The position numbers and the translations under genes were made by a program. A stretch of 64,000 nt of DNA from Podospora anserina (Eukaryota), in NCBI GenBank assembly GCA_017654855.1, contig CM030337.1:2790001-2854000 (forward strand). Direction: 5' to 3'. Each line of letters starts with the position of its first letter. The first letter of the stretch is position 1. The notes below the pieces were generated by a model that saw only the letters and a program-made list of their open reading frames with translations, did no database searches and was not told where the DNA came from. Positions 2,435 to 43,800 of the stretch are shown piece after piece.

Positions 2435-3159
2435 ATGTCAGAACCCGAGCAAGACTACCTCCTCCCTGACGAATGGAACGGCCGCGTGGTCTACCTCTTC
2501 AGCGAATCCACAGGCAATGTCCTCGATCTCCATGGCGGTCTGTCCCCGCCCCAATCGCCTGAACAGCCCTTCAGGAACTGACATGTTACCTCAAAGGGCA
2601 ATCTCACAACGGAAACAAAGTCCAAGGGTGGCAATACCTAGGTAGCAAGGCGCAGCAATGGCGATTGCAAAAAGTCGATTCAGGGCCTTTCGGGGCTTGG
2701 GTTCTTCACAATGTTGCGTCTGGGAGTATGTTACGTTCACCTCACTACCTGGATTGGTGTTAAGGTTGCTAACGGCTGTCTCTTGAAGCTGTACTGGACC
2801 TCGACGGTGGTAGTCCAGATGACTGCACCAAAATAATGGGGTGGAAGTATTATGCCGGAAACGGAAATCAGGAATGGTTGATCATTACCAAGAAGTATAA
2901 CGACGGGTCACAGTGCATGTGAGTGACGGTTGAGAATTTCGGTGTGAGTTCGACTGACTGACAGAGGGAAAGACTCCAGAACAGGAATTCTTTCACTGTG
3001 GCTGACATGTCGGAAGGAAAGCGGGATAATGGGTATGGCTTCAGTTAGTTTTCCAGTGATGGATCTGTTTTGACAAAGAAAAATCGCAGAAACCCTGTTA
3101 TTGGCTATCAGAGAGAGGCTTGGAATAAGAATCAGTTGTGGAGGATGAAGATTGCGTAG
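2435..3159 (+). CDS. Ricin B-type (beta-trefoil) lectin, 5 exons, no signal peptide
   Basis: Manual splicing (introns 2538-2596, 2726-2788, 2919-2972, 3033-3089) gives three repeats: VLDLHGG..NGNKVQGW..AQQW, VLDLDGG..TKIMGW..NQEW and VADMSEG..NGNPVIGY..NQLW. These are three QxW motifs. Confidence 0.85.
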
Positions 3160-3397
3160 AACACCGCGGGGTGTGACATACCTACAAGGGAAACGCGTGG
3201 ACGAGAATACGCCATCAATGGCCAAGAAGCCGCCGGAAGAAAGTACAGGGAAGAAGAGGACGACCGGCATATGCTGAAAGGGAAACAGGCAGGCTCACTT
3301 CTTGAGTCATTGCCCCAGAGCAATTCTCCATCACATCATGGTCTAGCTTTTACTGATCATCTCTAGAACCTTTCACCCCTGAACCCCCCTCCCCAAC

Positions 3398-5163
3398 TCA
3401 CATTCCCCAATCCCTCAAAATCCTGTAAACCAGCGCAGTAGTCCACCCCCTACTGCCAATCCTCTGCTTCTGCACCCGTCCATAAGAACAAAAATCCCCC
3501 GCCGGCCACCCCCCATCCCCCTCCTGCATCCCCAACAAACTCTCCAAATCCCTCTGCACAAACCCCCTCCCCAGCCCCAAAAGCTGCCAAGCCCTCACCC
3601 TCATCGCCAAAGCAAGCGCATTTATAGGCACATTCAACCTCTCCCTCAACGCAGCTTCCAGCTCCCCCTTCAACTCCCCACACAACCTCGGCGAGGAGTC
3701 CCTGCACTCATCACACAACATGGCCAGGTAGTACAAGAAACTCTCTGGGTGGGGGTAGAACCTATTCCCATAAACATTCGCCCGGTACCGAAGGCAATCC
3801 GCCACCAATTTTTTGGAGGGTTCGATCCTCTCGTCGGTGACGTCAAGACTAGGGAGGTCAGGGATTTGGCCTGATGAGAAGAATTTGTTCAGACAGCGGA
3901 GGACAGAGACGCAGACTTCTGGGCTTACGCGGCCGTGGCGGTCGGGGGAGAAGTACGTCTCGAAGTGACCGTCCTTGTTGCGAATGGCGAACATCGCTTC
4001 TGCGATTAGAGATGGGGGCGAGAGGAGGTGGTAGTTGGGGTGGGAAGGGGTGATGGTGAGGTAGGCGATGGAGGTGGTTTCAATGTCGGGAGGGAAGGTG
4101 GTTGTTGTTAGGATGGGGGAGGAGTGAGTGAAGTAATTCCAGAGGGTGGGTTTGACTTCGAGGTGGTGCAAAGAAGGGGAGGGCGAGGATGGAGGGGATG
4201 TGGATGAGGATGGGGGCGAAGGGGCGGGTGAGGGTGAGCAGGAAGCATCGGATATGGGGGTGGGGCTTGTGGTGTCCATCATGTCTGCCTCTTCTTGGCC
4301 CCTGGTAATAATACCATCTGGCCAGGTAAGGTACACAATGTCCTCCATGCCGGTCAGTCCCCAGATCATGAGCTGGGCAAAGTTGTCTTTCAAGACGATA
4401 TCGTCCTTTCCCGGCATCGAGATGACAGAGTCAAGCTTGCCAGCGTGCATGTGCAGGAAACGCTCAGCACGGAGAGAGGCGTCCTCCAGGAGTAGGTTCC
4501 TGACAATGTTGAAAGCTCGGGTTCTCTGGTCTGGGTCTACAATCTCTCCACGTAAACCCAGCAGTCGTCCAGCACAGATGTTCTCGGACTTGTCATCCAG
4601 GTACAAGGTGGTGGATGGGTTGCAGCCCGTCTCTTGAATGACATGGCGATAGAAGGAAAGATCTGGCTTTCGCATGCCGGCGTCGAAGGAGGTGAAGATC
4701 CTGTCAAAGACGGGCCATGGGAAGGAAGGAAGCGCTTGGACGATGTCCATGTGTTCCTTGGCGATGTTGGACATGGCGTAGATTTTGAGCGGGCGGGCTC
4801 CCTGTGCCTTTGCTGCGGCAAGCTCATGGATCAAAGCCAATGCTTCCTTGTTGACTCGCAAGGTTGACTGGGCTTGGTGTAGAGCTAGCTGAACAAGTGA
4901 CGGGTCGACACCAAAATCCATCCCAAGTTTCTAGAGAATGACAAGTTGGTAAGAACAGGTCAAAGGGTTGAAAGGGGGGCATGTACCGTGTACGCCTCAT
5001 CAGTCGACATGCTGTCTTTCTCCAAGTCATGCCAGGTCGCGGTGTGCATCATAAGGTGGATTGTCTTCCGAGGAAGGGCAGTAACAGCTGAAGAGTCCCA
5101 GTCGAAGAGGACACCGCCAATGTCGAAGATGACAGTGTCGTAGGTGTTGGGTGCCATCTTCAT
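3398..5163 (-). CDS. HAD-like hydrolase fused to a class II-type terpene cyclase domain (AstC/drimane synthase-like)
   Basis: Intron 4931-4986 joins ORF 4960-5163 to ORF 3398-4921. HAD motifs VIFDIGGVL, YAMSN, GMRKPD and LDDKSEN. C-terminal FPPDIETTS (DxDTT-like) and QW-like QEGDGGW. Confidence 0.8.
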
Positions 5164-41886: not shown

Positions 41887-42078
41887 GCCTATCAGGTATC
41901 TTTTGAGGTTTATTAACTATCTTTCAAGGTATATCAACTATTTAGAAGGTGGAAGGTCTGCTAATACTTGTTTGAAAAGGCCTGTTAGCTATATTTTGAG
42001 GCCTATTAACTATCCTTTTTCAGGTCTATTGCTATCTTCCAACGTCCATTAACTATTTTCGAAAGCCTGTCAATTAGG
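41887..42078. repeat. Degenerate AT-rich minisatellite, ~21-bp unit (approx. CCTATTAACTATCTTTTGAGG), ~8 copies
   Basis: Units include TTTATTAACTATCTTTCAAGG, CCTGTTAGCTATATTTTGAGG, CCTATTAACTATCCTTTTTCAGG and TCCATTAACTATTTTCGAAAG. Confidence 0.75.
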
Positions 42079-42312
42079 TTCAAGTCTCGATAACCGTGTT
42101 TTGTCCACGACGTACATGGCAACTGCCACTGCCTACATTACCTATCAACCTGCCCTCCGTCGTCCGACAGCAACATGAGCCAGAGGATTTCTTGCACACC
42201 TGGCTCTTTCACAATCTTCCAACCTACCAACTTAGCCAGGCGTCACATTCATTCATCAAAACACATTCATTCATCAAAACATCATTACAAACAACTATTA
42301 GCGCCCATCGTC

Positions 42313-43800
42313 ATGGATCACGATCGCCATGCTCGACGAGAGTGGAGTCACCGTTCGCGGGGTTACAAAATGGAGGGCCCTGTTTCCGGAATGATCGAAA
42401 CTCTCGAAAGTGGAATAGGTGTCGTCAAAACGCACCATGTCGAGATGAAACGGAACCTCCACTCGGCTTTCGCCATCCATTCGTCTATACATCTAGCCGA
42501 CCAGCGGGGCGGGTTCGATGAGCGTTGTCGAGACCCCGGCCTCCTCGACAAAATCATGACTCCACTGCCCATGGGCGCAGGCGACTTGTTCCCCGGGTGC
42601 TATGTATCAAAGCGTGCGTACGAGGAGTGGGATGTCGACGGCAAGGACACCATCACGATGCAACTTTGTTGCGAACAGCCCAATCACTTGGGTTTGCCAC
42701 CGGAGGCTATCACAGCCAATTTGGCGGTTGAGCTGTCTCCTCCCGCACCGCCCAACAGAAAGGGAGCGAAGTGGGAAAGGCATCGATATGGGCAGGTTTG
42801 GTTCCGGTTCAGCCTGAGCATGGAGACCGACATCTTCAACATGGTGACCAAGAGTCTGGACTTGCCCGGGGAATTACGAGCCATCAGGAAACTTCTCGCC
42901 ACCGCCGACCTGTTGGTGCAAGCAGCAGCTGAGAATACCATACATTGCAACTATGGGAACAGACCTTGGTAGTGCAAACCCGTCGTGGCGCCCTCTGGGG
43001 CATCTAGCAATGCGCCTGATGCCTTCGGCAGTAGAGCCGATGTCGTTTCCGCTGATACGGCTGCTGCCACTACAGCACTGGTGAACCTTCAAGGGGCTGG
43101 GGATCAAGAGGTGGCGAAGTTGACGGCCGAGAGGGACAAGTTCAGAAGTGATTGGGCGATGCTATCGACAGAGATACGAAACTTGAAAAATAATCTGGCC
43201 GTCGAAAAAAACAGCGCGGAGACGGCAGAGAAGAAGTTGGAGAAGGCAGAGAAGGGGCTGGAGAAGGTAGTTGAGGAGAGGGATAGGTTGAAGTCAAACT
43301 CCGAAAGGCAGGCCAAGCAAATCACAGCCCTGAATTATGCTCAAGTAAAACTCAGGAATGAGAACGCAAAACTCAAGGAGGAGCGGACAGAGGCGCAAAA
43401 TACAAAGAAGAAGTTGGAAAGAGAAGCCAAAGACCTCAGAGGGAAGAACGCTGTCTTGGAGGAAGATCGGAAGGCCGAAGAGGACAGGCAGCAGAAGGCT
43501 CGTGAGGAGGAGGACATGAGGCAGAAGATGCTTGATGCCAGAGAACAGAGCTTTTGTGAATGGGAAAGGTTGCTCGAGCAGAGGGAAAGGTCACTGGCCG
43601 AGAAGGAATGGTCACTGGCCGAGAAGGAATGGTCACTGGCCGAGAGGGAAAGGTCACTGGCCGAGGGCGCGCCTCAGCCGCAGCAGGAGGCCCTTCAGAA
43701 TGAGACTTCTCAAGCAGACAATAACACCATTCCGGAGAAGTCTTTCCGTCCGATTCCGGCATCTGACAATGCGGCAAGTGAAAGAAGGCAAAGTATTTGA
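42313..43800 (+). CDS. Orphan protein: globular N-terminal part and long coiled coil, separated by an in-frame TAG (42970-42972)
   Basis: ORFs 42175-42972 and 42985-43800 share a frame (RPW*CKPVVAP). The coiled-coil part has a 21-bp repeat (EKEWSLA) near 43582-43663. Confidence 0.65.

What the first reader, a model, noticed from the sequence alone, without database searches (positions are those of the whole stretch)
3157..42972. Recurrent in-frame TAG codons with the reading frame continuing: signature expected of A-to-I stop-loss editing
Seen: six loci where frames continue past TAG, not TAA or TGA: 3157, 15699, 17482+17557, 29011+29035, 33627 (minus strand) and 42970. Seven of the eight TAGs have a purine at +3 from the A. 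These loci lack the dense RIP damage seen at 62 kb. Known: in Sordariomycetes (Fusarium, Neurospora, Sordaria), sexual-stage A-to-I mRNA editing prefers U at -1 and purines at +1/+3, converts UAG to UGG, repairs premature stops and extends proteins. Inference: several genes here make fruiting-body-specific isoforms. I found these by eye, so ascertainment bias is possible.
Basis: partly seen in the sequence, partly recalled or inferred. Interest (0 to 1): 0.72.

Follow-up and report, generated by a model that had tools for sequence, protein, structure and literature searches.

The report
One edited stop among eight TAGs
Of eight stop codons flagged in a Podospora fungus, most look ordinary, but one small gene of unknown function also occurs in public data with tryptophan in place of its stop, as expected if the known fruiting-stage RNA editing of such fungi repairs it.

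Summary
All eight TAGs exist, but they are not a shared signature. Frames do not stay open more often after TAG than after TAA/TGA (590 kb of the same genome: 14 of 97 against 30 of 230, p 0.73). TAG 15699 stands out. Five of five named sister-species models stop at the same residue, yet the public collection also holds a 309-aa P. anserina-type protein, on 4 short Logan contigs (longest 2,052 nt), identical to the window frame except Trp at this TAG. That is the expected trace of A-to-I stop correction, but I saw the protein, not reads, and a rare genomic TGG allele remains possible. TAG 42970 interrupts a gene that is continuous in Cercophora; the stop seems shared across Podospora, was not spliced out, and was unedited in the RNA contigs laid. 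TAG 33629 is a recent CAG-to-TAG nonsense change; 29011 is the normal end of the Ctk2 cyclin; 17482/17557 lie in a 5' leader; 3157 probably ends a lectin gene. The scan has noted similar candidates elsewhere in this genome, none with the edit seen. Verdict: new member of a known kind.

The parts
15120..16049 (+). Single-exon gene of unknown function (orthologue of QC76x_606845; 'Pa_6_6845' is my inference from those tags). 193 aa up to the TAG, 309 aa with Trp at the TAG; Ser-rich middle, predicted helical C-terminal part.
   Evidence: Coding score 0.10 before and 0.22 after the TAG against background -0.14 +/- 0.15. No Pfam family. Folds of low confidence, pLDDT 36 and 43.
15699..15701 (+). 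Best candidate A-to-I site (A at 15700), context CCT-A-GTAC; TAG to TGG gives Trp194.
   Evidence: P0013 differs from the window frame only at residue 194, stop to W; 4 Logan contigs, longest 2,052 nt. The A is predicted paired, next to a 5-nt loop.
42313..43800 (+). Gene of unknown function (orthologue of QC76x_606930): N-terminal region plus coiled-coil-like C-terminal half, split by one TAG. Start codon uncertain (42175, 42313 or 42370).
   Evidence: One RNA contig spans 41939-43618 without a gap.
42970..42972 (+). Second candidate premature stop; edit not seen.
   Evidence: Cercophora samala protein is continuous here, with Ser; 3 of 3 named Podospora models skip the site and one Logan protein of another lineage ends at it. 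No A>G at 42971.
27521..29013 (+). Ctk2-like cyclin (CTD kinase beta subunit), 460 aa, introns 27757-27810 and 28017-28072; TAG 29011 is its normal stop.
29014..29787 (+). Transcribed open frame behind the cyclin stop: 7 codons, second TAG at 29035, then 249 codons. Weak stop-loss candidate needing two edits.
   Evidence: Covered without joints or other letters in 4 of 4 runs; coding score 0.07; only a self hit among 1.84 billion proteins; no extended form among 10 of 10 and 4 of 4 cluster members.
33501..34695 (-). HAD-like hydrolase gene (PODANS_6_6905; the annotated model starts further up, at 35386). TAG 33629-33627 cuts off a 41-codon acidic tail.
   Evidence: Relative P0160 has Gln at this codon and ends 31 residues later; P. 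comata ends earlier in another frame.
17482..17559 (+). Two TAGs in the 5' leader of the AFG1-family ATPase gene (ATG at 17566); not inside a coding region.
   Evidence: Coding score -0.16 upstream and -0.20 between them; AFG1_ATPase E 2.9e-87 downstream; sequence. Orthologue N-termini were not checked (look-up blank).
2563..3159 (+). Later exons of a ricin-B-type lectin gene; TAG 3157 is probably its normal stop.
   Evidence: RicinB_lectin_2 at E 1.1e-5 and 0.047 in two upstream exons, none in the last exon or the 68 codons behind it; those 68 codons score -0.11. No homologue check.

Best explanation
The eight TAGs are a mixed set. One, 15699, is a true premature stop corrected by A-to-I mRNA editing. 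The genome gives a 193-aa protein ending in a Ser-rich and acidic stretch; deamination of A15700 turns UAG into UIG, read as Trp, and adds a 115-aa mostly helical part, giving 309 aa. Shown here: the stop in the genome and in five sister species, a coding-like downstream frame, and a Trp form in short public contigs. Inferred: that those contigs are RNA, that the edit is in the majority of their reads, and that it happens in perithecia through the Tad2-Tad3-Ame1 deaminase described in Fusarium. 42970 is probably a second such site (about even odds), unproven. The other six are ordinary: a gene end (3157), a 5' leader (17482, 17557), a conserved stop with a long transcribed 3' frame (29011, 29035), and a recent nonsense change in a dispensable tail (33629).
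For: P0013: 309 aa, source Logan, 4 contigs, longest 2,052 nt, one difference from the window frame, stop to W. It carries the window's own residues G7, S8, H155 and P160, where the sister species differ, so it is of this species. The stopped forms sit on genome-size contigs: P0005 on 18 contigs up to 3.0 Mb, and the separately called 99-aa downstream piece P0012 on 16 contigs up to 52 kb. The collection does hold RNA assemblies of this species: the spliced 460-aa cyclin P0149 is on 7 Logan contigs up to 5,042 nt. 5 of 5 named sister models end at the same residue. The downstream frame is at least as conserved as the upstream one (P. bellae-mahoneyi 2 of 99 against 14 of 192 differences, p 0.10). 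Editing is described as common in Sordariomycetes (PMC11087585, passages), and P. anserina ADAT genes rise during perithecium development (bioRxiv 2024.12.09.627484, passage).
Against: No read or contig over 15699 was seen: the one read-laying run covered 24101-44100 only. The kind and stage of the four contigs are not given. The A is predicted in a stem at all four window sizes (unpaired probability 0.01-0.16), whereas fungal sites favour hairpin loops. P0013 shows no second A-to-G recoding. The conservation contrast is not significant (p 0.10 and 0.18). No relative outside the species complex was found, so the ancestral codon is unknown. For 42970, the RNA contig that spans it keeps TAG and no Trp form was found (from 42370; from 42175; a third look-up began one codon late and is void).
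Confidence: 0.7

Rival explanations
1. The Trp form at 15699 is a genomic TGG allele segregating in P. anserina, not an RNA edit; the other loci are ordinary.
For: P0013 is known only as a protein; the record does not say RNA or DNA. The A lies in a predicted stem. The strains behind the RNA runs differ from the window at several single bases, so alleles exist.
Against: Its contigs reach only 2,052 nt, where DNA-size contigs of this locus reach 52 kb. The stop is shared by five sister species, so the allele would have to be a new change at exactly this base, to exactly the codon that editing gives.
Confidence: 0.15
2. One reading: most or all six loci are editing sites giving fruiting-body isoforms, including a 717-aa cyclin made by two edits.
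For: 7 of 8 purines at +3. The cyclin's 3' frame is transcribed, open for 249 codons and mildly coding-like, 0.07. Hundreds of genes have stop-loss edits in F. graminearum and N. crassa, mean editing level about 15% (PMC11156358, passages); contigs would hide such levels.
Against: No TAG enrichment. No edited letter at 29012, 29036, 33628 or 42971 in the contigs laid. Cyclin extension without homologues and without a fused form. Gln in a relative at 33629. Non-coding scores around 3157 and 17482/17557.
Confidence: 0.07
3. 15699 and 42970 are fixed nonsense mutations in decaying genes (or pairs of separate small genes); any editing is incidental, because every UAG already has the preferred U at -1 and G at +1.
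For: Both genes evolve fast; the 42970 gene has lineage-specific deletions in its 3' half. A downstream ATG at codon 211 gives a 99-aa frame that gene callers list separately. Whether stop-loss editing is generally adaptive is disputed (PMC13684035 and PMC13684032, search listing with start of abstract only).
Against: Downstream frames stay open and coding-like across the species complex. A Trp form that wins in an assembly implies a high share of edited reads (inference).
Confidence: 0.08

Closest known systems
PSC (premature stop codon correction) pseudogenes of Fusarium graminearum: 71 genes (PMC10776026, abstract, passages and section 6), including PUK1, AMD1, FgRID, FgAMA1, FgBUD14 (PMC11156358, passages)
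   Same: In-frame UAG inside a coding region, kept in related species, Trp in the corrected form. 43 of 71 PSC genes encode hypothetical proteins and 50 of 71 have disordered regions, as the 15120 gene appears to. PSC stops often come from non-Trp codons, as the Ser in Cercophora suggests for 42970.
   Different: Different genus (Podospora, Sordariales). The 15120 gene has no relative found outside the species complex, so 'restorative' cannot be shown. Its A is predicted in a stem. Stage and function untested.
Stop-loss editing of canonical stops, such as FgDBF2 (PMC13123824, search listing with start of abstract only; PMC11156358 passages)
   Same: The cyclin's TAG is a conserved canonical stop followed by a long transcribed frame.
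   Different: Two TAGs must both be edited; the tail has no homologue and no edited form was found.
Ordinary nonsense change CAG to TAG (a CpA to TpA transition, the RIP-type change; recalled knowledge)
   Same: 33629: Gln in relative P0160, and three different tail ends in three lineages.
   Different: No dense RIP signature in that kilobase. The relative's codon was seen only as Gln, not as DNA.

Membership tests
PSC pseudogene (site 15699) | In-frame UAG with coding sequence on both sides | tested here: met
   193 + 115 codons, scores 0.10 and 0.22 against background -0.14; downstream frame kept in five variants.
PSC pseudogene (site 15699) | A in genomic DNA, G in mRNA of the same strain | tested here: inconclusive
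   Trp form on 4 contigs up to 2,052 nt, stop form on genome-size contigs; reads and run type not seen.
PSC pseudogene (site 15699) | Editing restricted to the sexual stage | not testable with these tools
   Run stage is not on record.
PSC pseudogene (site 15699) | U at -1, purine at +1 and +3 | tested here: met
   Context CCT-A-GTAC. -1 and +1 are automatic for any UAG.
PSC pseudogene (site 15699) | A in a hairpin loop (a preference, weaker than the sequence preference: PMC9600606 passages) | tested here: not met
   Predicted paired at +/-15, 30, 50 and 100 nt; 304 of 912 window TAGs fall in hairpin loops at +/-30.
PSC pseudogene (site 15699) | Stop retained in related species | tested here: met
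   5 of 5 named sister models end at the same residue; codon identity seen only in this genome.
PSC pseudogene (site 15699) | Outgroup orthologues with an amino acid at the site (restorative) | tested here: inconclusive
   No outgroup found: (169-541 aa only).
PSC pseudogene (site 15699) | Function depends on the edit | not testable with these tools
   Needs TAA and TGG alleles.
PSC pseudogene (site 42970) | In-frame UAG in a gene that is continuous in an outgroup and not removed by splicing | tested here: met
   C. samala P0003 aligns across it without a gap, Ser at the site; X1 contig 41939-43618 has no gap.
PSC pseudogene (site 42970) | A in DNA, G in mRNA | tested here: inconclusive
   No A>G at 42971; but contigs drop minor variants and the runs show only one A>G in 20 kb, so they may not be of an editing stage.
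Stop-loss editing (29011/29035) | Edited canonical stop with a conserved C-terminal extension | tested here: inconclusive
   No edit in contigs of 4 of 4 runs; no homologue of the tail; no long form in two complete clusters. Low-level editing not excluded.
PSC pseudogene (site 33629) | Stop and downstream frame retained in relatives | tested here: not met
   Gln in P0160; different ends in P. comata and P0160.
Sordariomycete A-to-I system | Tad2, Tad3 and Ame1 present and active in this organism | not tested
   From papers only; the genome was not searched for them.

The most novel reading that the evidence does not exclude
The 15120 gene is a young gene of the P. anserina species complex whose C-terminal helical part was never encoded without the stop: editing did not repair an old gene but opened a new coding region behind a stop, at high level and from a site predicted in a stem. 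It would be a traceable case of domain gain through RNA editing, and the look-up used here (Trp forms among proteins called from public RNA assemblies) would give a cheap first map of edited stops in Podospora.
Probability: 0.15. Interest if true: 0.65.

Novelty: new member of a known kind. Interest (0 to 1): 0.4.

Why it matters
Sexual-stage A-to-I editing is well described in Fusarium, Neurospora and Sordaria. My searches found no paper listing edited sites in Podospora or naming these genes; subscription journals and bioRxiv supplements were not visible. If 15699 holds, it is a concrete edited stop in a classic genetic model, testable with one RT-PCR, and it shows that the current 193-aa and split annotations are incomplete. 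The work also shows that gene models bypass such stops with predicted introns (42970), and that a TAG followed by an open frame is not by itself a sign of editing.

Tried and rejected
1) TAG enrichment: tested in the window and in 590 kb of the genome, none found. The coding model was trained on that same sample, is insensitive, and many of its hits are introns or antisense frames. 2) An intron removing TAG 42970, as three sister-species models imply: not in the X1 contig, and the skipped stretch is conserved as protein in Cercophora. Stage-specific splicing is not excluded. 3) Introns removing 29011/29035: no joint in 4 of 4 runs. 4) No RNA holder was on record; the four runs laid show spliced joints, so they hold RNA, of unknown stage. 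Run X21 has no cover over the 42970 gene, which is no evidence. 5) A>G at 43547 in 3 of 4 runs: context CAG, and five other single-base differences occur in all four runs (a sixth in three), so it is probably a strain difference; not resolved. 6) Function of the two candidate genes: Pfam blank, Atlas blank for P0013 and no usable hit for P0003, folds too poor for a structure search, no paralogue in the genome, one weak metagenome match in the Ser-rich part (29%). 7) Exact look-ups: 7 of 7 blank (two began one codon late, one begins with GTG), 3 of 6 blank. 8) The cyclin homologue search covered 171-546 aa only, so it could not show a 717-aa form. 9) Gene names were not found in the full-text search or in 7 supplementary files of PMC6709928. 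Passages of the eLife Spok paper (PMC6660238) gave nothing on editing.
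Full report
Setting. The window lies in a 36-Mb genome of 9 contigs. Its proteins match Podospora anserina records (PODANS_6_6905, 267 of 267 residues in the last exon; PODANS_6_6890, 99.7% over 313), so I take it to be that species.

Observation. All eight TAGs are present and 7 of 8 have a purine at +3. The background is 444 of 912, giving P = 0.03 before allowing for choice by eye. The claim that frames run on after TAG and not after TAA or TGA fails. 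In six frames of the window, stops with 150+ codons before and 60+ after are TAG 5 of 23, TAA 2 of 13, TGA 12 of 44. I trained a simple coding model on 59 stretches of 10 kb from the same genome. Among coding-like frame ends there, 60+ open codons follow TAG in 14 of 97, TAA in 11 of 78 and TGA in 19 of 152 (p 0.73). The model is crude and many hits are introns or antisense frames, so this excludes a strong excess, not a few real sites. The loci therefore have to be judged one by one.

TAG 15699. A single-exon frame runs 15120-16049 with one TAG after codon 193. Both sides score as coding (0.10 and 0.22; background -0.14, SD 0.15, n = 317). The homologue search returned one cluster among 3,206 candidates. 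Its 14 members were all read: the 193-aa stopped form (18 contigs, up to 3.0 Mb), five named sister-species models of 192-193 aa, one 190-aa Logan form, six 99-101-aa pieces that begin behind the stop, and P0013, 309 aa, from 4 Logan contigs of at most 2,052 nt. P0013 equals the window frame except for W at the TAG and has the window's own residues where the sister species differ. Short contigs with TGG against long contigs with a stop is what majority A-to-I editing in RNA assemblies would leave. The collection does contain RNA assemblies of this species, since the spliced cyclin is on 7 contigs up to 5,042 nt. A genomic TGG allele remains possible. Against editing, the A is predicted paired, beside a 5-nt loop, at all four window sizes, while fungal sites favour hairpin loops, though sequence matters more than structure (PMC9600606, passages). 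The downstream frame looks no less conserved than the upstream one (2 of 99 against 14 of 192 differences in P. bellae-mahoneyi, p 0.10; variable columns 8 of 99 against 27 of 193, p 0.18). The protein has no Pfam family, paralogue, Atlas hit or usable fold; both poor models put a helix across residue 194.

TAG 42970. 292 open codons precede and 275 follow. Four relatives were found among 3,316 candidates. The Cercophora samala protein aligns across the site without a gap and has Ser there. The models of P. pseudopauciseta, P. pseudoanserina and P. pseudocomata each leave out a stretch containing the site, in two different ways, and a Logan protein of another lineage ends exactly at it; I read this as a shared stop bypassed by predicted introns (inference; their DNA was not seen). 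One RNA contig of run X1 spans 41939-43618 with no gap and keeps the TAG. Across 20 kb the four runs show seven single-base differences, only one of them A>G (43547, context CAG), so they give no sign of being from an editing stage, and contigs drop minor variants. No Trp form was found by exact look-up, a weak test because the RNA strains differ at 43547. PSC stops often derive from non-Trp codons (PMC10776026, passage), so the Ser does not count against it. About even odds.

TAG 29011 and 29035. The gene is the Ctk2-like cyclin; both introns were seen in 4 of 4 runs. 120 of 301 homologues were listed; the 60 of 410 aa or more run from 417 to 507 aa, and the closest end at the same place. That search could not show longer forms, but the Podospora cluster (10 of 10 members, at most 460 aa) and the tail's own cluster (4 of 4) hold no fused form, and the tail finds only itself among 1.84 billion proteins. 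The tail is transcribed, unspliced, unedited in the contigs and mildly coding-like (0.07). Low-level stop-loss editing is possible, since hundreds of genes show it in Fusarium and Neurospora at a mean level near 15% (PMC11156358, passages), but nothing here shows it.

TAG 33629 (minus). It ends a HAD-like protein inside an acidic tail. Relative P0160 has Gln at this codon and stops 31 residues later; P. comata ends earlier in a shifted frame. No T>C at 33628 was listed.

TAG 17482, 17557 and 3157. The first two lie before the ATG (17566) of an AFG1-family ATPase in sequence that scores as non-coding; the Arg/Ser/Thr-rich start after that ATG looks like a mitochondrial presequence (recalled knowledge). 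3157 closes the last 36-codon exon of a ricin-B-type lectin gene, and the 68 codons behind it score as background. Neither was checked against orthologues or reads.

Mechanism and comparison. For 15699 the best reading is premature-stop correction: UAG to UIG, read as Trp, giving a 309-aa protein in place of 193 aa. The enzyme (Tad2-Tad3 with Ame1; PMC11087585, abstract and passages) and the perithecial timing are taken over from Fusarium, not shown here; a P. anserina preprint notes ADAT genes rising in perithecia but the passages seen list no sites. It works like a PSC gene. Membership is probable, not established: coding flanks, conserved stop and sequence context are met, the loop preference is not, the DNA/RNA difference is indirect, and stage and function are untested.

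Earlier notes of this scan list at least nine similar candidates in this genome; those whose summaries speak to it say that the edit was not seen. I did not test them and do not count them as support. A first-stage note covers the cyclin tail. Searches found no paper on edited sites in Podospora or on these genes; subscription papers and bioRxiv supplements, including those of the preprint, were not visible and may hold expression data.

Verdict. The recurrent signature is not real; one site is probably edited (about 0.75), one is open (about 0.5), six are ordinary or unsupported. New member of a known kind; interest 0.4.

Noticed in passing
window 32848-35609, + strand: A spliced transcript antisense to the HAD-like gene: six + strand joints between 32848 and 33321 in runs X1, X2 and X4 (five GT..AG, one with a 10-nt micro-exon), and an untemplated A-tail behind 35609 in X2. 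The HAD gene's own intron was not among the joints in any of the 4 runs.
   Followed up: partly
window 27274-31683: The cyclin contig runs on into the convergent minus-strand gene (30079-31782) in 3 of 4 runs, which suggests overlapping 3' ends; a contig across two genes does not prove one transcript.
   Followed up: no
window 43590-43670: The 42970 gene has a short repeated unit (EKEWSLA-like, about three copies) where three sister species have about 100 other residues; another lineage has a different deletion.
   Followed up: partly
window 43547: A>G (Gln to Arg codon) in contigs of 3 of 4 runs; strain difference or an edit in a non-preferred CAG context.
   Followed up: partly
window 26550, 35214, 35244, 36826, 37353, 37681, 39576: An 18-nt insertion and six single-base differences between the window and the RNA runs: the strains differ.
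   Followed up: no
window 41900-42090: AT-rich stretch with repeated motifs just upstream of the 42970 gene, possibly a decayed repeat.
   Followed up: no
window 54372-55568, - strand: 398-codon frame for a secreted-looking protein made largely of PPKPTKPVT repeats.
   Followed up: no
window 9732-13460, + strand: 1,242-codon frame that looks like a TPR plus CHAT-type protease protein (by eye and recall; not scanned).
   Followed up: no
window 62001-63150: RIP-like dinucleotide skew over what reads like a broken NACHT-type (HET/NLR) gene fragment with TAG stops (family by recall).
   Followed up: no
L050:9079 (+): In the genome sample, a 662-codon frame ends in TAG followed by 60 coding-like codons and another TAG; a possible stop-loss candidate.
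   Followed up: no
P0011: The P. bellae-mahoneyi annotation names the 99-aa piece behind the 15699 stop 'General negative regulator of transcription subunit 4'; nothing in my searches supports that name.
   Followed up: no
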